From Lachnospiraceae bacterium (GTDB lineage Bacteria > Bacillota > Clostridia > Lachnospirales > Lachnospiraceae): DNA of 32,000 nucleotides. This document shows positions 112 to 19,001 of the stretch, piece after piece (within the stretch, counting starts at the first letter, position 1; each line of letters begins with the position of its first letter). The notes below the pieces were generated by a model. It saw only the letters and a program-made list of their open reading frames with translations. It made no database searches and was not told the DNA's origin. The translations under genes were made by a program, and so were the position numbers. Location: positions 196,180 to 228,179 of the forward strand of contig SVDZ01000003.1 of the NCBI GenBank assembly GCA_015057625.1. Direction: 5' to 3'.

Positions 112-184
112 ATAACTTACAGAGTAAATTATCTCATGACTGACGCGCATTTCGCAGCAAGAACGCTGAGGCGTTCTTGAATTA
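112..184 (+). repeat. 73-bp hairpin element, copy A (5'-truncated), in the feoAB leader
   Basis: Identical over all 73 nt to 15061-15133, with unrelated flanks. Contains the hairpin aagaacgc-tgag-gcgttctt (159-178). Only part of the first hairpin is present. Confidence 0.85.
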
Positions 185-225
185 TCTATGTCAGTTATTT
201 ATTTTTATTATCTATGGAGGCAATT

Positions 226-2580
226 ATGACTTTAAAAGATTTGCAAATTGGTGAATGTGCAAACATACTTTCAGTCGGTGGTGAAGGTGCTCTGCGACAG
301 CATTTTCTGGATATGGGCGTAATTCCCGGCGCGGAAGTTTCTATAGTAAAGTACGCACCTATGGGCGACCCGATGGAGTTGCTTATTCACGGATATAAAC
401 TCACACTCCGCCTTGACGATGCTGCCCAAATTGAAGTGTCACCCATAAAATCTGATGAAACTGGTAAAAATATCTCAAGCACTAAGACAAAAGAGAAAAA
501 ATCTCACACAAGCCATCCGGGACTTGGTGAAGGTGGTAAGTATCATGCAAAGGGAAGTGGAGATCCCCTTCCTCCAGATACATTGCTTACTTTTGCCCTT
601 GTTGGAAATCAGAACTGCGGAAAGACTACTCTATTTAATCAACTTACCGGTTCAAACCAGCATGTAGGTAATTTCCCGGGAGTAACTGTTGACAGAAAAG
701 ACGGGCCAATCAGAGGGCATAAGAATACTCTTGTCACTGATTTGCCTGGCATCTATTCCATGTCACCATACAGCAATGAAGAAATTGTATCCCGAGATTT
801 TGTCTTGAAAGAAAAGCCAAAGGCTATCATCAATATTGTGGATGCTATGAATATAGAAAGAAATCTTTATCTGACAATGCAGCTTCTTGAAATGAACATG
901 CCTATGGTTGTGGCGCTCAATATGATGGATGAAGTGGCCGAAAATGGTGGAACCATTGATATCAATGCAATGGAAGCTATGCTTGGAGTTCCTGTTGTTC
1001 CGATTTCTGCCTCAAAGAATTCCGGTGTTGACGAGTTAGTTGAACACGCACTCCACATTGCTCATTATCAGGAACGTCCTGTACGCCAGGATTTCTGTGA
1101 CGAAGAGGGTCCTTGTGCCGCTGTTCACAGATGTCTTCACGGCATATGCCATCTCATTCAGGACCACACTAAAAATGCAAATATTCCTCTTAGATTTGCT
1201 GCAAGCAAAGTCATTGAGGGGGATTCACTGCTGATATCTAAACTCAATCTTGACGCCAATGAACTTGATGCCATAGAGCACATAGTATCTCAGATGGAAA
1301 AAGAACGCGGTCTTGACAGATGTGCTGCCATCGCCGATATGAGATTTTCATTTATCAGTAAGGTTTGTAAAGCTACTGTCAAGAAACCACGTGAGAGCAA
1401 AGAATCAATCCGAAGTGAAAAACTCGATCGCATTCTCACCGGTAAATACACAGCCATTCCTTCATTTATTTTGATAATGGGTATGGTATTTTGGCTCACC
1501 TTCAATGTTATAGGTGCCTGGTTCCAGGGGCTTATTGAGACAGGTGTCGAAGCTTTGTCAGCAATTGTCGATAATGCCATGACTTCAACGGATGTAAATG
1601 AAGTACTTCACGGCCTTATAATAGATGGTATTTTTGCCGGAGTAGGAAGTGTATTAAGTTTTCTTCCGATTATTGTTACACTGTTTTTCTTCCTCTCGCT
1701 TTTAGAGGACAGCGGTTATATCGCCAGAGTAGCTTTCTTTATGGATAAGTTGCTTAGAAAAATAGGACTTTCAGGTCGAAGTATTGTGCCTCTTCTCATT
1801 GGATTCGGTTGTACTGTTCCGGCAGTTATGTCAACCAGGACCCTTCCAAGTGAGCGAGACAGAAAGATGACTATTCTTCTCACTCCGTTTATGAGTTGCA
1901 CAGCTAAACTTCCAATTTATGCATTTTTTGTAAATGCCTTTTTCCCAAGACACGGTGCCCTTATTATGATTGGCCTGTATCTTCTTGGAATTGTAACCGG
2001 AATACTTGTTTCACTCTTATTCAGAAGAACTCTGTTCAAAGGTGAAGCCGTTCCGTTTGTAATGGAGCTTCCAACCTACAGAATGCCTGGTTTTAAAAAT
2101 GTAACTCAGCTTCTCTGGGAAAAAGCAAAGGACTTCTTGCAGAGAGCATTTACTGTAATTTTAATCGCAACAATTGTAATCTGGCTATTGCAAAGTTTTG
2201 ACTACCACTTTAACTATGTTACAGATTCAAGACAAAGCATACTCTCTATGCTTTCAGGATTATTAGTTCCAATAATGACTCCTATCGGACTTGGAGACTG
2301 GAGAATCTGCACTTCATTAATCAGTGGATTTATGGCAAAAGAAAGCGTAGTATCCACCCTTAACATCCTCTTTGATCAGGATGTTGCCGGCTCAATGACT
2401 TCACTGTCCGCCGCTTCACTTTTAGTGTTCTCGCTATTGTACACACCTTGTATTGCTGCCGTTGCATCAATCAAGCGTGAAATGGGACGCAAGTGGGCAT
2501 GGCTTGTAGTACTGTGGCAATGTTCCGTTGCCTGGTTCGTATCACTGGCAGTATATCTGATTGGATCATTGATAAAATAG
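226..2580 (+). CDS. feoB: Ferrous iron transporter, FeoA-FeoB fusion
   Basis: ORF 214..2580. N-terminal FeoA-like domain (MTLKDLQIGE...LRLDDAAQIEV), a Lys/Ser/Gly-rich linker, a G-domain (GNQNCGKTT, DLPG) and a long polytopic FeoB membrane domain. GGAGG lies 5 nt before ATG 226, and there is no RBS before ATG 214. Confidence 0.93.
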   Translation: MTLKDLQIGECANILSVGGEGALRQHFLDMGVIPGAEVSIVKYAPMGDPMELLIHGYKLTLRLDDAAQIEVSPIKSDETGKNISSTKTKEKKSHTSHPGLGEGGKYHAKGSGDPLPPDTLLTFALVGNQNCGKTTLFNQLTGSNQHVGNFPGVTVDRKDGPIRGHKNTLVTDLPGIYSMSPYSNEEIVSRDFVLKEKPKAIINIVDAMNIERNLYLTMQLLEMNMPMVVALNMMDEVAENGGTIDINAMEAMLGVPVVPISASKNSGVDELVEHALHIAHYQERPVRQDFCDEEGPCAAVHRCLHGICHLIQDHTKNANIPLRFAASKVIEGDSLLISKLNLDANELDAIEHIVSQMEKERGLDRCAAIADMRFSFISKVCKATVKKPRESKESIRSEKLDRILTGKYTAIPSFILIMGMVFWLTFNVIGAWFQGLIETGVEALSAIVDNAMTSTDVNEVLHGLIIDGIFAGVGSVLSFLPIIVTLFFFLSLLEDSGYIARVAFFMDKLLRKIGLSGRSIVPLLIGFGCTVPAVMSTRTLPSERDRKMTILLTPFMSCTAKLPIYAFFVNAFFPRHGALIMIGLYLLGIVTGILVSLLFRRTLFKGEAVPFVMELPTYRMPGFKNVTQLLWEKAKDFLQRAFTVILIATIVIWLLQSFDYHFNYVTDSRQSILSMLSGLLVPIMTPIGLGDWRICTSLISGFMAKESVVSTLNILFDQDVAGSMTSLSAASLLVFSLLYTPCIAAVASIKREMGRKWAWLVVLWQCSVAWFVSLAVYLIGSLIK

Positions 2581-2616
2581 TAGTGGAAATTGTTCCGAAG
2601 AGTGAGATTTGCTCCT

Positions 2617-2686
2617 GGGAAATGTAATGTTTTTGGGAGATGTAATGTTTTTTTGAGAGATGTAATGTTTTTTGAGAAATGTAATG
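2617..2686. repeat. Four tandem 18-20 bp repeats with core ATGTAATG
   Basis: ATGTAATG occurs at 2622, 2640, 2660 and 2679, each preceded by G(G/A)GA(A/G) and followed by a T-run. Located directly after the feoB stop. Confidence 0.85.
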
Positions 2687-2777
2687 CGCGAAAGCCATGA
2701 GATAACTTACTCTGTAAGTTATCGAAGCGAAAGCGATTATTTTTAATCGCGAAAGCCATGCCGACGCGCATTTTTTT
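2684..2777 (+). other. Composite palindromic element related to the 73-bp element; possible feoAB terminator
   Basis: Outer stem atgcgcg (2684-2690) / cgcgcat (2765-2771) followed by T7 (2771-2777). Inner hairpins: gataacttac-tct-gtaagttatc (2701-2723) and gcgatta-tttt-taatcgc (2733-2750). 13-bp direct repeat cgcgaaagccatg at 2687 and 2748. Shares catgagataacttac and gacgcgcattt with copies A and B. Confidence 0.6.
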
Positions 2778-2793
2778 CTATTTTGGGCTTGTG

Positions 2794-3144
2794 TGCAACA
2801 TATTTTTGAATTTCTTGATTTATGTTGTACATTTTTTCTTCCAATTTTTGTCCGCATACAACATAGAATTCATTTTCCTAATCTATGTTGTACATTTTTT
2901 CTTCCAATTTTTGTCCGCATACAACATAGATTTAATTTTCTTAATCCATGCTGTATTTTCTCCTCCAACAATTTTTTTCACGTACAGCATAGATTTAATT
3001 TTCTTAATCCATGTTGTATTTTTTGCTCCAACAATTTTTTTCACGTACAACATAGATTTAATTTTCTTAATCCATGTTGTATTTTTTGTTCCTGCAACTA
3101 TTTTTATGTACAACATAGAATTGAATTTCTTATTATATGTTGTA
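2794..3144. repeat. 63-bp-period tandem array 1 (6 units)
   Basis: T(A/G)CA(A/G)CAT at 2794, 2857, 2920, 2983, 3046 and 3109. ATG(T/C)TGTA at 2822, 2885, 2948, 3011, 3074 and 3137. All spacings are exactly 63 bp. 36-bp blocks alternate with 27-bp T-rich blocks, and these are mutually similar (2830-2856 is identical to 2893-2919). Confidence 0.95.
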
Positions 3145-3162
3145 CCCGCTCTTTACACACAC

Positions 3163-3294
3163 AATATGTGTCACATCAAATTATTTCCCCTGCATATCAT
3201 CAAAGCCATTTTGGCCACTTTAAACACTTTGCCCTGCATATCATCGAAGCCATAGTGATTGTATCTATCATGTTGCCCTTTTGTGACACATATT
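3163..3294. repeat. 13-bp inverted repeat enclosing two 22-bp direct repeats
   Basis: aatatgtgtcaca (3163-3175) is the reverse complement of tgtgacacatatt (3282-3294). Inside it, ccctgcatatcatc(a/g)aagccat occurs at 3188-3209 and 3232-3253 with one mismatch. Located just downstream of the GH5 stop on the minus strand. Confidence 0.8.
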
Positions 3295-3299
3295 TCACT

Positions 3300-5486
3300 C
3301 TAATATCCCACTCTCACATAATTTCCATTTACTATCGAGAGTACTTCATTGTACAAATAATTATGACCACTTTCGTTTGGCATCAATTTATTCCTGTACA
3401 AATAGTCTGCTATTTCGTAGACTGATTTTTTTGAAATTTCACTGTACTTGTATGTGCCATTTTTCAACTTCACATATGCTCTAATCATCAGCACACTACT
3501 GTAAAACTCTTTAGTTTTTATGTTCTTCATGGTCATGGCATAACTTTGCGCTCCGGCAATTTCACTGTGAATCGCAGTTATTCTTCCATTGTCAGTAGCT
3601 TTGAAACTATATACATTACTGTTGTTACTTTGAATAACCATCTCAGATTCATTTGCATATTCTTTAAGTCCGTATATCAAACCTTTTTCCACCACTTCAC
3701 TTTTTGGATCTGCCACGGAATAAATTGTTCTGAAACCTTCATATTGGGCATTGAACTGGAACCCGTTAATTTCCACTCTCGACTGCTCATATGACGCTCC
3801 CGTTGTTGTCTCCTGCGCCTTTGAAGTTTCCTCTGCTCCCGTTGTTGTCTCCTGCGCCTTTGTTGTCTCCTCTACCTCGGTTCTCTCTCTCAAAGACACC
3901 TCTGTAATTTTGACGGTATGCCCCGGAAGGTTGCTCACTCCGTCTATGGTTCCAAGACATATGGTACACTTAACACCTGTTTTTGTAACAGCCTGGGCAG
4001 GAATTATAATTTCAACTTCCTGAGTTTTTCCTGCCTCTAACGAAATTGTTTGCGATGCAAGAGTTTCGTAATTATTTGACGGTATCTGAAAATGAATTGT
4101 CACGCTTCTGCTTACTGAAGAATTCAGCTTACATCTGAACACATAGTCTTTTCCTGCATTTATCACGATATCCGCTTTTGAAACGTGGGGTTGCCAATTA
4201 CTCTCCCCCATGCTTTGAATTGTAACCGTGCCATCAGCACCATAAGTGTTTGAGTTTTGGTAGTTATAAAAAGAAAGATTATCAATCAGATTTTCTCCCT
4301 CTTCGTATTCAATGTCATGAATAGGCTCTTCGTCCTTCTCACTTGCAATCATTGACGAAATGAGATTTGGGAATAAAGGCACATATGAATATCTGTCAAA
4401 TATGCCAAAGCACTCCTCACCCTGTCTGTCAGCGGTGGTTCCATTGTCCCACCACACACAAGTAATTCCATATTTTCTTGCTGCCTTAACATAATATTTT
4501 GCATGAACTATTCTAGAATCAAGATTGCCCTTATTGGTGGTTCCGAATTCGCCAATAATTACAGGTGTTCCCTTCGACACAAACTTGTCGTAAAGCTTTT
4601 TCATCTGATTGTCCATTGCAATTTTGTCAGCTTCGCTGCCCCATGTGTTAACACCGCTGTCTTTCATTGCAAATTCATACGGCGAATATGCGTGAACCGA
4701 CAATATGACATTGGGATCATTTGGCTTCACAAAACCGTTTAACGCGCTATCCGTAATTGCCGCTGCCACTGTGGGAAGCATAACTTTTCTGATGCTGTTG
4801 TTTCCGCCGGTTGCTCTAATTGCATTAAGTGCAACCTGATTATAATAATTCAATACTGCTCTTGATTCCTCAGTTCCGCCACTCCACTCAGTAGGACTTC
4901 CTTCCTCCCTTGGCTCATTTAGCACTTCAAAAATCAGATTTCCACCATACTTATTAAATCTTGTAGCAATCTGAGTCCAAAGAGCATTGATAAGTTCAGC
5001 GTTTTGCTCCTTGTGGTTGTAATTCGGTATAATATGTTCTCCTTCATGATGGGTATTGAGAATAACATACATCCCCTCATCCAATGCGTAATTTACTACC
5101 TCTTCAACCCTGTTCATCCATGAGGCATTAACTGTGTAATCCGGTGCATTTCCCAGTTTATATGTCCAGGTAGTAGGAATTCTGACCGTTCTAAATCCAT
5201 GTTCCTTCAGTCCGTGAAGCAATTCTCTGGTAATGACAGGCTTTCCCCAGTTAGTCTCTGTCGCATTTGCTCCCTTAGCGGAATCAAGAGAATTTCCGAT
5301 ATTAATCCCCACTCCCATATCATCCACCATTTGTTGTGCCGTAATATCAAATGTAACCAGTGCATTTTCGTTTGCCTGTGCCATAACCGAATTCTTCATC
5401 TCTGTTTTACTAACTCCCGTAACCAACATCGCCCCACAAACCAAAAATGTGGTAACTCTCTTTCCGTACAATCCTAATTTCTTCAT
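3300..5486 (-). CDS. Secreted multidomain GH5 glycoside hydrolase (endoglucanase/cellulase family)
   Basis: Signal peptide. GH5 hallmarks FEVLNEPR (acid/base Glu) and PVIIGEFG (nucleophile Glu). These are followed by a beta-rich putative carbohydrate-binding region, a duplicated ETT(K/S)AQETTTGA linker and a ~170-aa C-terminal domain of unknown type. GGAG lies 8 nt before ATG 5486; ATG 5492 is too close to the SD. Confidence 0.9.
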   Translation of the reverse strand: MKKLGLYGKRVTTFLVCGAMLVTGVSKTEMKNSVMAQANENALVTFDITAQQMVDDMGVGINIGNSLDSAKGANATETNWGKPVITRELLHGLKEHGFRTVRIPTTWTYKLGNAPDYTVNASWMNRVEEVVNYALDEGMYVILNTHHEGEHIIPNYNHKEQNAELINALWTQIATRFNKYGGNLIFEVLNEPREEGSPTEWSGGTEESRAVLNYYNQVALNAIRATGGNNSIRKVMLPTVAAAITDSALNGFVKPNDPNVILSVHAYSPYEFAMKDSGVNTWGSEADKIAMDNQMKKLYDKFVSKGTPVIIGEFGTTNKGNLDSRIVHAKYYVKAARKYGITCVWWDNGTTADRQGEECFGIFDRYSYVPLFPNLISSMIASEKDEEPIHDIEYEEGENLIDNLSFYNYQNSNTYGADGTVTIQSMGESNWQPHVSKADIVINAGKDYVFRCKLNSSVSRSVTIHFQIPSNNYETLASQTISLEAGKTQEVEIIIPAQAVTKTGVKCTICLGTIDGVSNLPGHTVKITEVSLRERTEVEETTKAQETTTGAEETSKAQETTTGASYEQSRVEINGFQFNAQYEGFRTIYSVADPKSEVVEKGLIYGLKEYANESEMVIQSNNSNVYSFKATDNGRITAIHSEIAGAQSYAMTMKNIKTKEFYSSVLMIRAYVKLKNGTYKYSEISKKSVYEIADYLYRNKLMPNESGHNYLYNEVLSIVNGNYVRVGY

Positions 5487-5717
5487 CAACATATCTCCTC
5501 GTCTAATGATGCTTTATTCAAGACTCTCTCCCCTTTGCTTTTAAACCGCTCAAAATACCTAACACATGTTATGAGTTATGAGCAGCATTTCGTTCGTGCT
5601 CATTTTCCTTCCGATAAGTTACATTATATACAATTTTTAACCAACTGCATACCTTGAAATAATAATTGAAAATGTGTTATTATAACTATCAATATTTATT
5701 AAAGTAGGGAGGTTATT

Positions 5718-14211: not shown

Positions 14212-14446
14212 CCGCCTTTCATGTTAAATTGAGATAGCACTCTCTGCACATCTTTTCAAAATATATTTCTATTTACTATTACGCCGATACACACTTCTTT
14301 AATATGCGCGTATCATTAATAATAATTATACATATTTTTTCATTTCCATAAATGGGTGAAAAAAACGAAATATAAAGGGATAATTCGCTTTTAAGTTGTA
14401 AATACTACTCCGAAACACAAATTACATATCAGGAACAAAAATTGTT

Positions 14447-14887
14447 TGTGGTACGTACTCCCAAGAAACTTATTCGGAGAGAATATGCGTATCAGAATAT
14501 AAATTTGCTTGTGGTACGTATGCCCAAGAAGCTTATTTGGAGAGAATATACGTATCAGAATTAATAATTGCTTGTGGTACGTACTCCCAAGAAGCTTATT
14601 TCGATTGTATATACGTATCAGAATTAAAATTTGTTTGTGGTACGTACTCCCAAGAAACTTATATAGATTGTATATGCGTATCAGAATTTAAAATTGCTTG
14701 TGGTACGTACTCCCAAGAAGCTTATTTGGAGAGAATATGCGTATCAGAATTAAAATTTGTTTGTGGTACGTACTCCCAAGAAACTTATATAGATTGTATA
14801 TGCGTATCAGAATTAAAATTTGCTTGTGGTACGTACTCCCAAGAAACTTATATAGATTGTATATACGTATCAGAATTAATAATCCCC
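14447..14887. repeat. 63-bp-period tandem array 2 (7 units)
   Basis: TGTGGTACGTA starts at 14447, 14510, 14573, 14636, 14699, 14762 and 14825, exactly 63 bp apart. Each unit has the palindromes GTACGTAC and AT(A/G)CGTAT and a 20-nt variable segment of two types plus a hybrid. Degenerate partial units flank the array (about 14300-14330, 14420-14446 and 14890-14900). Confidence 0.95.
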
Positions 14888-14922
14888 CTATAATACGTAT
14901 ATTCATTTTTCCAATTACAAGC

Positions 14923-15054: not shown

Positions 15055-15133
15055 CATGAGATAACTTACAGAGTAAATTATCTCATGACTGACGCGCATT
15101 TCGCAGCAAGAACGCTGAGGCGTTCTTGAATTA
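15055..15133 (+). repeat. Hairpin element, copy B (full length), in the ECF sigma leader
   Basis: 15-bp stem catgagataacttac (15055-15069) / gtaaattatctcatg (15073-15087) with one C.A mismatch and loop aga. Second hairpin aagaacgc-tgag-gcgttctt (15108-15127). 15061-15133 is identical to 112-184. Confidence 0.85.
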
Positions 15134-18889: not shown

Positions 18890-19001
18890 GAATACAATCA
18901 CCTCTCATTGGATATATCAGTATATAACAGTATATATCTGTTACTAACACTATATAACAGTACATAACTGTTTGTCAATATTTTTTCACTTACGCATAAA
19001 T

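What the first reader, a model, noticed from the sequence alone, without database searches (positions are those of the whole stretch)
2794..3144. Second 63-bp-period array with a compensatory double substitution in an 8-bp stem
Six units have an exact 63-bp period. ATGTTGTA (2822, 2885, 2948, 3011, 3074, 3137) alternates with its reverse complement TACAACAT (2794, 2857, 2920, 2983, 3046, 3109). In one unit both arms are changed in a complementary way. The arm at 2948-2955 reads ATGCTGTA (C at 2951) and the arm 27 nt downstream at 2983-2990 reads TACAGCAT (G at 2987). This preserves perfect pairing across the 27-nt T-rich segment while breaking pairing with the arms on the other side. It is the signature expected if the hairpin ATGYTGTA-N27-TACARCAT is selected, either as an RNA stem-loop or as a DNA cruciform or protein half-site pair. 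The 27-nt 'loops' are related to each other: 2830-2856 is identical to 2893-2919, and 2956-2982 differs from 3019-3045 by about 3 nt. The array shows the same order of short motifs as array 2: TGT(T/G)GTA, CTCC(C)AA(C/G)AA, ACGTA(C/T), AGA(T/A)TTAA(A/T)(A/T)TT. It also shows the same alternating ~35/28-bp motif spacing and the same total period. This suggests two diverged members of one repeat family 11.6 kb apart, although the internal spacings differ, so homology is not proven.
Basis: seen in the sequence. Interest (0 to 1): 0.75.

Follow-up and report, generated by a model that had tools for sequence, protein, structure and literature searches.

The report
Helically phased TACAACAT inverted-repeat array

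Summary
Array 1 (2794-3144) is real. It has six 63-bp units, each a 36-bp module TACAACAT-N20-ATGTTGTA plus a 27-nt T-rich spacer. It lies between the convergent 3' ends of feoB and a GH5 cellulase gene in a Lachnospiraceae genome. C2951 and G2987 are as described; the arm at 2794 is TGCAACAT.

The compensatory reading does not hold. That position is the family's tolerant R/Y site, it is mostly uncompensated in relatives, and neither pairing register covaries above shuffles. The other hairpin (N20 loop) is far more stable.

Array 2 is not a detectable sequence relative, although it shares the 63-bp period and a similar 29/34 split.

New here: arrays with the same arms and geometry occur at 9 or more loci of another Lachnospiraceae MAG and in several other Clostridia. 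Only the arms and the spacing are conserved between arrays. Arm spacings form a ladder with a step of about 10.5 bp (51, 62-63, 73, 83, 104...). A congeneric species lacks both arrays.

Best reading (about 0.45): a BIME-like dispersed array of half-sites on one face of the duplex for an unidentified DNA-binding or mobilising protein. Main rival: REP/BOX-like mRNA hairpins.

The parts
2794..3144 (.). Array 1: six 63-bp units, each a 36-bp inverted-arm module plus a 27-bp spacer. T-rich on the + strand and purine-rich on the - strand.
2794..2829 (.). Module 1 (degenerate edge unit): TGCAACAT-N20-ATGTTGTA
2857..2892 (.). Module 2: TACAACAT-N20-ATGTTGTA
2920..2955 (.). Module 3: TACAACAT-N20-ATGCTGTA. 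The right arm carries C2951, the Y variant of the family's R/Y position.
2983..3018 (.). Module 4: TACAGCAT-N20-ATGTTGTA. The left arm carries G2987, the R variant.
3046..3081 (.). Module 5: TACAACAT-N20-ATGTTGTA. As RNA on the - strand it forms a perfect 13-bp stem including one G.U pair, -12.9 kcal/mol.
3109..3144 (.). Module 6 (edge unit): TACAACAT-N20-ATGTTGTA
2948..2990 (.). It is the centre of the whole-array minimum-free-energy fold, but on its own gives only -7.8 kcal/mol (+ strand) or -6.4 kcal/mol (- strand).
2733..2750 (-). Terminator-like hairpin GCGATTAAAAATAATCGC, 44 nt downstream of the array on the - strand. This gives an order of GH5 stop, array, hairpin, as in L114. The U-tail is weak.
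   Evidence: inference
14437..14879 (.). Array 2: seven 63-bp units with two ACGT-centred near-palindromes (GTACGTAC and ATRCGTAT) 34/29 bp apart. It is not a sequence relative of array 1. It shares the same period and a similar split. Copy number varies: strain L003 lacks 2 units.

Best explanation
Array 1 is one copy of a dispersed, phylogenetically patchy family of intergenic tandem arrays in Clostridia.

The functional element is an 8-9-bp half-site, TACARCAT(A), placed in strictly alternating orientation. Successive sites are spaced so that same-orientation sites are a whole number of DNA helical turns apart. Here the spacing is 28+35=63 bp, or six turns. All sites therefore lie on one face of the double helix.

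The most likely mechanism is a double-stranded-DNA scaffold on which one sequence-specific DNA-binding protein binds cooperatively. That protein is unidentified and is possibly the one that spreads the repeats. The array works like the BIME clusters of enterobacteria. It was seeded in this lineage and then grew in place by duplication of 63-bp units.

C2951 and G2987 are two hits at the one tolerant (R/Y) position of the half-site, or one mutation copied to the neighbouring inverted arm by template switching. They are not evidence for a selected N27 hairpin.

Shown: family membership, geometry, the helical ladder, lineage-specific presence, and the absence of covariation. Inferred: protein binding, the identity and role of the protein, and the mode of spread.
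For: (1) Family. The pattern scan of 185,579 species genomes found arrays with the same arms and geometry at 9 or more loci of the Lachnospiraceae MAG JAZQQI01. L119 has 18 units of 62-63 bp. L122 has two arrays. L114, L118, L125, L126, L138 and L140 also carry them. Further arrays occur in RUG091, UMGS736, CALZOZ01, CAKMLH01, CAKQXD01 and Lentihominibacter faecis. The array-1 HMM hits L119 at E=9e-6.

(2) Between arrays only the half-site (consensus TACARCAT then A) and the spacing are conserved. The interiors differ.

(3) Helical ladder. Same-orientation periods are 51-52, 62-63, 72-74, 81-83, 103-104, 114 and 124-126. Opposite-orientation gaps are about 20 / 28-35 / 39-45 / 49-50. Leaving out all 62/63 values, the Rayleigh R is 0.64-0.66 at T=10.4-10.6 bp, p about 1e-6, and 0 of 2000 random sets reach it.

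(4) The period stays at 62-63 even where the split differs: 20+27 here, 21+26 in JAZQQI01, 23+23/24 in Lentihominibacter. Paralogous arrays with unrelated interiors keep the same spacer pattern (L128 vs L135/L027; L116 vs L124).

(5) There is no covariation in either pairing register.

(6) The half-site variant is genome-specific: all G/C in RUG091 and A/T here.

(7) Spread. The same A/B 125-bp super-unit lies at 8 or more core-genome loci in one MAG, and the arrays begin and end with arms.

(8) Lineage specificity. The congeneric L141 (MetRS in the same 90% cluster, GH5 67% identical) has neither array. About 120 kb from relatives contains none.
Against: No binding protein is identified. No transposase, RAYT, cas or any other recurrent gene appears among 75 ORFs flanking the arrays.

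The ladder values are not all independent. Some arrays are paralogues, and '>' and '<' distances were both counted.

The arrays lie inside transcription units. L114 and L126 are between a stop codon and a terminator, and L119 and L122 are between co-directional genes. An RNA role is therefore possible.

In JAZQQI01 the G..T (G.U-compatible) strand is the sense strand in most determinable arrays, about 7 of 9. Here the 13-bp inner stem has G.U on the - strand but A.C on the + strand.

Eighteen units is more than any known regulator needs.
Confidence: 0.45

Rival explanations
1. REP/BOX-like RNA element. The array is co-transcribed on the - strand as the 3' UTR of the GH5 cellulase mRNA. Each unit folds into the inner hairpin (UACAACAUGGAUU / AAUCUAUGUUGUA). 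The run of stable hairpins between A-rich linkers protects or punctuates the mRNA, acting as an exonuclease barrier or processing sites.
For: The inner hairpin is -12.9 kcal/mol on the - strand (z -6) and -9.0 kcal/mol on the + strand. Units 3-5 have G.U on the - strand where the + strand has A.C. No intrinsic terminator lies between the GH5 stop and the array, and a hairpin follows the array on the - strand. In L114 and L126 the arrays sit between a stop codon and a terminator. In L119 and L122 they fill intercistronic gaps of 9-42 bp. The window's - strand aligns with the sense, purine-rich strand of L119. In JAZQQI01 the G.U-compatible strand is usually the sense strand.
Against: An RNA stem needs no fixed sequence, yet the 8-mer is conserved across bacterial families while the stems do not covary. 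The inner stem does not extend beyond 8-9 bp in most other arrays, and the interiors fold differently. A ladder of about 10.5 bp has no RNA rationale. Orientation is not uniform: L140 and L138b are probable exceptions, and the two Lentihominibacter arrays are opposite to each other. There is no Rfam match.
Confidence: 0.25
2. The hairpin ATGYTGTA-N27-TACARCAT is the selected structure, as an RNA stem-loop or a DNA cruciform, and C2951/G2987 is a compensatory pair that preserves it.
For: The pair is perfectly complementary, and the whole-array minimum-free-energy fold on both strands centres on it. Under uniform mutation P is about 0.013. In CALZOZ01, UMGS736 and CAKMLH01 arrays the constant-length unit has this polarity (N24/25).
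Against: An 8-bp stem closing a 27-nt loop gives -5.4 kcal/mol on the + strand and -4.2 kcal/mol (z -0.2) on the - strand. It competes with a 13-bp hairpin. Outer-register covariation is no better than shuffles: 118-258 of 500 shuffles reach the observed values. At the R/Y pair 10 of 41 distinct rows are unpaired. In JAZQQI01, 31 of 56 modules are uncompensated at this position. Under the hot-spot model P=0.076-0.17. Template switching between nearby inverted repeats produces such pairs without selection; this is established knowledge of quasipalindrome mutagenesis, not tested here.
Confidence: 0.06
3. A minisatellite with no sequence-specific function. A 63-bp unit that happens to contain an inverted repeat expanded by slippage or unequal recombination, and the resemblance to other genomes is by descent or chance.
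For: The arrays are lineage-specific and absent from a congener. Array 2 varies in copy number between strains. Edge units are degenerate, as in ordinary tandem arrays.
Against: The identical 8-mer and geometry recur in several families of Clostridia while everything else has diverged. The same super-unit is dispersed at 8 or more loci in one genome. Spacer-length patterns are conserved with unrelated sequence, and the ladder is quantised.
Confidence: 0.12
4. A degenerate or orphan CRISPR array: a 36-43-nt palindromic repeat with 20-27-nt spacers.
For: The period of 63 bp lies in the CRISPR range. Genuine CRISPR repeats of the form GTTGTA...TACAAC exist (L087).
Against: Both segments of the unit are repeated, so there are no unique spacers. 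No cas gene was seen in the window ORFs scanned with Pfam or among 75 ORFs flanking related arrays. Between arrays neither segment is conserved.
Confidence: 0.01

Closest known systems
REP / BIME clusters of enterobacteria (bound by IHF and DNA gyrase; mobilised by RAYT transposases)
   Same: Both are extragenic, usually inside transcription units or at gene 3' ends. Both are short palindromic motifs in alternating orientation forming tandem clusters. Both are dispersed at many loci and patchy between lineages. Both have DNA-level (protein binding) and RNA-level (hairpin) roles as possibilities.
   Different: The conserved motif here is only 8-9 bp, not a 35-nt palindrome. The linkers are not conserved types. 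Spacing is quantised in helical turns with a dominant 63-bp period. No RAYT or any cognate protein has been found. The host is Clostridia.
BOX elements (Streptococcus pneumoniae) and MIRU (mycobacteria)
   Same: Both are intergenic or intercistronic tandem repeats of tens of bp, dispersed at many loci. Copy number is variable (seen for array 2). Both are co-transcribed with their neighbours.
   Different: BOX has A-B(n)-C modules, and MIRUs carry small ORFs overlapping the flanking genes. Here the units alternate 62/63 bp in relatives, so they cannot be coding. What defines this family is an inverted 8-mer and its geometry, not the unit sequence.
CRISPR arrays
   Same: Regularly spaced short palindromic repeats with a period of about 60-66 bp.
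   Different: There are no unique spacers and no cas genes were seen. Only 8-bp arms are conserved between arrays.
Iteron or centromere-like arrays (plasmid oriV iterons; parC/tubC) and phased operator arrays (Lrp, NrdR)
   Same: Repeated protein-binding sites spaced by whole helical turns, so that the protein binds along one face of the DNA.
   Different: Those lie next to their rep/par/regulated gene and occur once per replicon. These arrays lie between unrelated housekeeping genes at many loci, with up to 18 units.
Tus-Ter replication fork barriers (E. coli TerB AATAAGTATGTTGTAACTAAAG, PMC4499146)
   Same: The arm ATGTTGTA equals TerB positions 8-15. JAZQQI01 arrays share TATGTTGTAA.
   Different: The window lacks A16, C17 and G6 of the Ter core. 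The sites alternate in orientation, so they would block forks both ways. According to the review PMC10331603, Tus and RTP belong to other bacterial groups. Treated as a coincidence or a lead only.

Membership tests
TACARCAT 63-bp alternating half-site arrays (family defined here) | Arms TACARCAT and ATGYTGTA in strict alternation | tested here: met
   11 of 12 arms match the R/Y pattern and one has a single mismatch at another position (TGCAACAT at 2794)
TACARCAT 63-bp alternating half-site arrays (family defined here) | Inner gap of 20-23 nt and same-orientation period of 62-63 bp (or +/- whole helical turns) | tested here: met
   Inner gap 20 nt and period 63 bp in all units; family values
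TACARCAT 63-bp alternating half-site arrays (family defined here) | Sequence similarity beyond the arms to another member | tested here: met
   nhmmer with the array-1 HMM against L119: E=9e-6, opposite strand
REP/BIME | Extragenic imperfect palindromes in alternating orientation forming clusters | tested here: met
REP/BIME | Many dispersed copies in the same genome | tested here: inconclusive
   Only one such array in the 38.7 kb available for the source organism. There are 9 or more loci in MAG JAZQQI01.
REP/BIME | Cognate RAYT (Y1 HUH transposase) and a conserved GTAG-type head | not testable with these tools
   No transposase among 75 flanking ORFs, but whole genomes could not be searched
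CRISPR array | Conserved repeats separated by unique spacers | tested here: not met
   Both segments are repeated; spacers 1 and 2 are identical and spacers 3 and 4 differ at 2 nt
CRISPR array | Associated cas genes or leader | tested here: not met
   No cas domains in the window ORFs scanned or near related arrays
Type III toxin-antitoxin antitoxin RNA array (ToxI-like) | Tandem repeats immediately upstream of a ToxN/AbiQ-type endoribonuclease gene | tested here: not met
   The neighbours are feoB and a GH5 cellulase gene. Related arrays lie between housekeeping genes.
Tus-Ter fork barrier | Ter core: G6 and positions 8-18 ATGTTGTAAC(T/G) (PMC4499146, PMC10331603) | tested here: not met
   Only positions 8-15 match. 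Position 16 is C or T in the window, and position 17 is not C.
Rfam RNA families | Match to any curated covariance model | tested here: not met
   0 hits at gathering score in the window. Nothing on the arrays at E<=1 in seven related loci.
   Best hit in array 2 has E=11, and the reciprocal search finds nothing. Consensus comparison gives P=0.45-0.99.

The most novel reading that the evidence does not exclude
Clostridia carry an unrecognised chromosomal DNA-binding protein that assembles cooperatively on helically phased, alternating TACARCAT sites. The arrays are spread through core intergenic regions and serve as a new kind of bacterial chromatin, insulator or roadblock element, or as the landing and propagation sites of a new mobile system. 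The second 63-bp array (29/34 split, different arms) would then be the site array of a paralogous protein with the same architecture.
Probability: 0.25. Interest if true: 0.8.

Novelty: new variant of a known kind. Interest (0 to 1): 0.55.

Why it matters
Interspersed extragenic repeats such as REP/BIME, BOX and MIRU are well studied in Proteobacteria, streptococci and mycobacteria. I found no description of an equivalent in gut and rumen Clostridia.

This family is unusual in one respect. Selection appears to act on an 8-bp half-site and on spacing in whole helical turns, not on the unit sequence. That predicts a specific, testable protein partner. A cultured carrier, Lentihominibacter faecis BX16, exists for the experiment.

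There are practical consequences too. These arrays break short-read assemblies: Logan contigs end inside both arrays. They can be mistaken for CRISPR arrays or called as ORFs: a 77-aa and a 118-aa gene are called inside the two arrays, and a 128-aa one overlaps the edge of array 1.

For the first-stage finding itself, the lesson is that one complementary double change in a palindromic tandem array is weak evidence for a selected stem.

Tried and rejected
Protein-coding 21-aa repeat. ORFs run through the array only because 63 is a multiple of 3. Related arrays alternate 62/63 bp (super-period 125), and the ORFs have no Pfam hit.

CRISPR. Rejected, as set out in the rival explanations. Three pattern hits (L072, L085, L087) were genuine CRISPR arrays and L132 a probable one, and all four were set aside.

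Promoter or terminator array. Sigma-70-like hits are no more frequent than in shuffles. By eye I found no convincing match to alternative sigma-factor consensus sequences.

CsrA sponge. The SELEX consensus RUACARGGAUGU (recalled from memory) resembles AUACARCAUGGAU on the - strand. But the GGA is inside the stem and is absent from other arrays.

Tus-Ter. Only 8 nt are shared.

ToxI-like antitoxin. No toxin gene is nearby.

Mini-ORFs (ATG in the right arm to TAG after the left arm, 15 codons). These are not conserved in other arrays.

tRNA and Rfam searches found nothing.

Phage or plasmid origin. The phage search gave only four short, low-coverage matches (12-15% of the query), the plasmid search none, and the viral scan gave two irrelevant hits.

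Orthologous-locus covariation. The nearest relative with the GH5 gene has no array, so that test could not be run. Three more relatives found through MetRS have different synteny and no arrays.

Literature searches for the motif, for 63-bp repeats in Clostridia, and for Lachnospiraceae repeat families found nothing relevant.

The metagenome scan was largely wasted on an unrelated satellite (sample Ga0209679) and did not contain the source contig.

Full report
1. WHAT IS THERE

The window is chromosomal DNA of a Lachnospiraceae bacterium. The identification rests on an exact-sequence look-up of its MetRS and MgtE, which NCBI names 'MAG... [Lachnospiraceae bacterium]'. The window is identical to metagenome contigs from ENA and JGI.

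Array 1 lies in the 720-bp gap between the convergent 3' ends of feoAB (214-2580, +) and a GH5 cellulase gene (3300-5492, -). TRF reports 2796-3145, period 63, 5.6 copies.

Laid out in register, each unit has two parts:
- a 36-bp module, TACAACAT-N20-ATGTTGTA;
- a 27-nt T-rich spacer.

C2951 and G2987 are confirmed. TACAACAT occurs 10 times in the window against 1.9 expected, and nine of those are in the array.

2. THE TWO HAIRPIN REGISTERS

Free energies of single units folded as RNA:

| Hairpin | + strand | - strand |
|---|---|---|
| Inner (N20 loop) | -9.0 kcal/mol | -12.9 kcal/mol (z about -6) |
| C/G variant of the outer hairpin | -7.8 kcal/mol | -6.4 kcal/mol |

DNA parameters give the same ranking.

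The whole array folds far better than shuffles (z about -9 on both strands). This is the trivial result of a run of palindromic modules. The minimum-free-energy fold centres on the C/G pair simply because those two arms can pair perfectly only with each other.

In the inner register, one of the two substitutions is neutral (G.U) and the other is disruptive (A.C), whichever strand is read.

3. IS THE DOUBLE SUBSTITUTION MORE THAN CHANCE?

With three random arm substitutions, a compensated pair across the N27 spacer appears with P=0.013. The figure is 0.029 if either register counts.

If the position is a tolerated R/Y site, the chance that two variant half-sites of twelve face each other across a spacer is 5/66=0.076. 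For either register it is 11/66=0.17.

Template switching between neighbouring inverted repeats also produces such pairs without selection. This is established knowledge and was not tested here.

4. ARRAY 2

Array 2 (14437-14879, 7 x 63 bp) lies between the divergent DUF2007 and sigma-factor genes.

Its consensus unit is no more similar to that of array 1 than shuffled sequences are, on either strand and in any rotation (P=0.45-0.99).

An HMM built from array 1 finds nothing in array 2 (best E=11), and the reverse search also fails.

What is shared is geometry. Array 2 has two ACGT-centred near-palindromes 34 and 29 bp apart and a 63-bp period. None of about 30 unrelated tandem arrays in the fetched loci has period 63.

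5. RELATIVES ELSEWHERE

I scanned 185,579 species genomes with the pattern TACARCAT-N17-24-ATGYTGTA-N22-30-TACARCAT. The scan returned 30 loci.

One Lachnospiraceae MAG (JAZQQI01) has arrays at nine or more loci with the same geometry:
- L119 has 18 units of 62-63 bp.
- L122 has two arrays with a 125-bp A/B super-unit.
- L114, L118, L125, L126, L138 and L140 also carry arrays.

Arrays also occur in rumen Clostridiales RUG091, UMGS736, CALZOZ01, CAKMLH01, a Hadza-gut MAG and the isolate Lentihominibacter faecis BX16. The last also accounts for the two human-gut classes found in the metagenome scan.

The source genome itself was not among the hits. The array-1 HMM does detect L119 (E=9e-6). It does so on the opposite strand, so the window's - strand corresponds to L119's purine-rich sense strand.

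Between arrays only the half-site and the spacing are conserved.

The arrays lie between housekeeping genes: hslO and malic enzyme, lepA and hemN, and upstream of metG. No recurrent neighbour of any kind appears among 75 flanking ORFs.

No Rfam family matches. The phage collection gave only four short, low-coverage matches, the plasmid collection none, and the viral contigs held nothing relevant.

6. TEST OF THE SELECTED-STEM IDEA ON THE FAMILY

The position that changed in the window is the family's one variable arm position:

| Genome | State at the R/Y position |
|---|---|
| RUG091 | G/C in all 8 modules |
| This window | A/T, except C2951 and G2987 |
| JAZQQI01 (56 modules) | A..T 19, G..C 2, G..T 14, A..C 17, other 4 |

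I ran formal pair counts on 41 distinct arm triplets. For the inner register, 435 of 500 shuffles reach the observed percentage paired. For the outer register, 163 of 500 do. Covariation scores are reached by 431 and 118 of 500 shuffles.

7. THE DECISIVE PATTERN: SPACING IN HELICAL TURNS

Across arrays and genomes the distance between arms of the same orientation takes these values: 51-52, 62-63, 72-74, 81-83, 103-104, 114 and 124-126 bp. Gaps between opposite arms cluster at about 20, 28-35, 39-45 and 49-50 bp.

Leaving out every 62/63 value, the remaining 34 distances are strongly periodic at 10.4-10.6 bp. The Rayleigh R is 0.64-0.66, p about 1e-6, and none of 2000 random sets reaches it over the scanned range of periods.

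The period is held at 62-63 even when it is split differently: 20+27 here, 21+26 in JAZQQI01, 23+23/24 in Lentihominibacter.

Paralogous arrays with unrelated interiors keep the same series of spacer lengths. This holds for L128 vs L135/L027 and for L116 vs L124.

A step of about 10.5 bp is the helical repeat of B-DNA. It has a natural explanation if the sites must face one side of the duplex, and none for an RNA.

One caveat applies. The distances are not all independent.

8. POINTS IN FAVOUR OF AN RNA ROLE

The arrays are inside transcription units. In L114 and L126 the array sits between a stop codon and an intrinsic terminator. In L119 and L122 it fills intercistronic gaps of 9-42 bp.

In the window no terminator separates the GH5 stop from the array on the - strand, and a hairpin follows it.

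In JAZQQI01 the G.U-compatible strand is the sense strand in about 7 of 9 arrays. There are two probable exceptions, which is not significant.

I keep a REP/BOX-like mRNA role as the main rival.

9. EVOLUTION

The nearest relative carrying the GH5 gene is L141 (GCA_016282745.1). Its GH5 is 67% identical, and its MetRS is in the same 90% cluster as the window's.

In L141 the GH5 gene is followed after 66 bp by the anti-sigma and sigma genes. Its sigma-DUF2007 spacer has no 63-bp repeats.

About 120 kb from other close relatives contains no such array. A 99.7%-identical strain lacks two units of array 2.

In JAZQQI01 the same A/B super-unit occurs at eight or more loci, and the arrays start and end with arms.

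The family therefore spreads between loci and, judging by its patchy distribution, between lineages. It then grows and shrinks by whole units. How it spreads is unknown. The TA-CAACAT...ATGTTG-TA ends recall elements that duplicate a TA target, but that is only a resemblance.

10. VERDICT

It is wrong to take the double substitution as evidence for the N27 hairpin, and wrong to treat array 2 as a diverged copy.

The best-supported explanation is a BIME-like, dispersed array of half-sites phased on one face of the DNA for an unidentified protein (about 0.45). A REP/BOX-like RNA hairpin array comes second (about 0.25).

I could find no description of this family in Rfam or in the searchable literature. 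I rate it a new variant of a known kind, the interspersed extragenic repeats.

Noticed in passing
window 113-185 and 15060-15133; partial copy 2696-2775; L141 14148-14222 and 14463-14500: A two-hairpin element of about 73 nt (ATAACTTACAGAGTAAATTATCTCATGACTGACGCGCATTTCGCAGCAAGAACGCTGAGGCGTTCTTGAATTA). Identical copies lie just upstream of feoA and of the sigma-factor gene, and a diverged copy abuts array 1. In the related species both hairpins carry compensatory changes (GAGATAAC../..TTATCTC becomes AAGCTAAC../..TTAGCTT; CAAGAACGC/GCGTTCTTG becomes CAAGACTCGC/GCGAGTCTTG) around a conserved linker, GACGCGCATTTCGCAGCAAGA. There is no Rfam hit. It is a candidate structured 5' leader or a target region of the sigma factor.
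   Followed up: partly
window 14437-14879 (array 2); L003 3372-3702: A second 63-bp array with different arms (GTACGTAC / ATRCGTAT, 34/29 bp apart) in a divergent promoter region. A 99.7%-identical strain has two units fewer. It is absent from the orthologous spacer of the related species L141.
   Followed up: partly
window 2622-2686: A 19-nt tandem repeat, ATGTAATGTTTTTTGAGAG x 3.4, directly after the feoB stop codon.
   Followed up: no
window 3163-3294: A perfect 13-bp inverted repeat (AATATGTGTCACA / TGTGACACATATT) enclosing a 38-nt direct repeat (3172-3209 and 3216-3253, 82% identical), between the GH5 stop and array 1.
   Followed up: no
window 18912-18968; L141 5912-5987: A 10/20-bp repeat, ATATAACAGT x 5.7, immediately upstream of the gntR-family gene and conserved in the related species. 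Probably the operator array of that regulator.
   Followed up: no
L128 1794-2006 (= L021 10031-10245) and L135 5592-5806 (= L027 1639-1860): Lentihominibacter faecis has two four-module arrays, ACAACATGAA-N17-TTCATGTTGT, with the same spacer series (12, 24, 23 nt) but unrelated interiors. One lies about 150 nt upstream of metG and the other about 150 nt upstream of an unknown gene after fabF. They look like assembly sites for a defined nucleoprotein complex.
   Followed up: partly
L125 1833-2095: In MAG JAZQQI01, 460 bp from a TACAACAT array, there is another tandem array. It has period 53 (about 5 helical turns) and its own inverted arms, TCAGCG / CGCTGA, 27/26 bp apart.
   Followed up: no
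L112 669-746, L120 769-846, L131 6326-6403: Shimia sediminis (an alphaproteobacterium, 60% GC) has triplets of the 14-bp palindrome ATGTTGTACAACAT spaced 32 bp apart. In all three loci they lie between convergent genes.
   Followed up: no
window 2883-3116 (-), 2471-2857 (-), 14537-14893 (+): Public gene calls place ORFs of 77 and 118 aa inside the two arrays, and one of 128 aa overlapping the edge of array 1. They have no Pfam match and are almost certainly artefacts of a period divisible by three. Logan short-read contigs also break inside or next to both arrays.
   Followed up: yes
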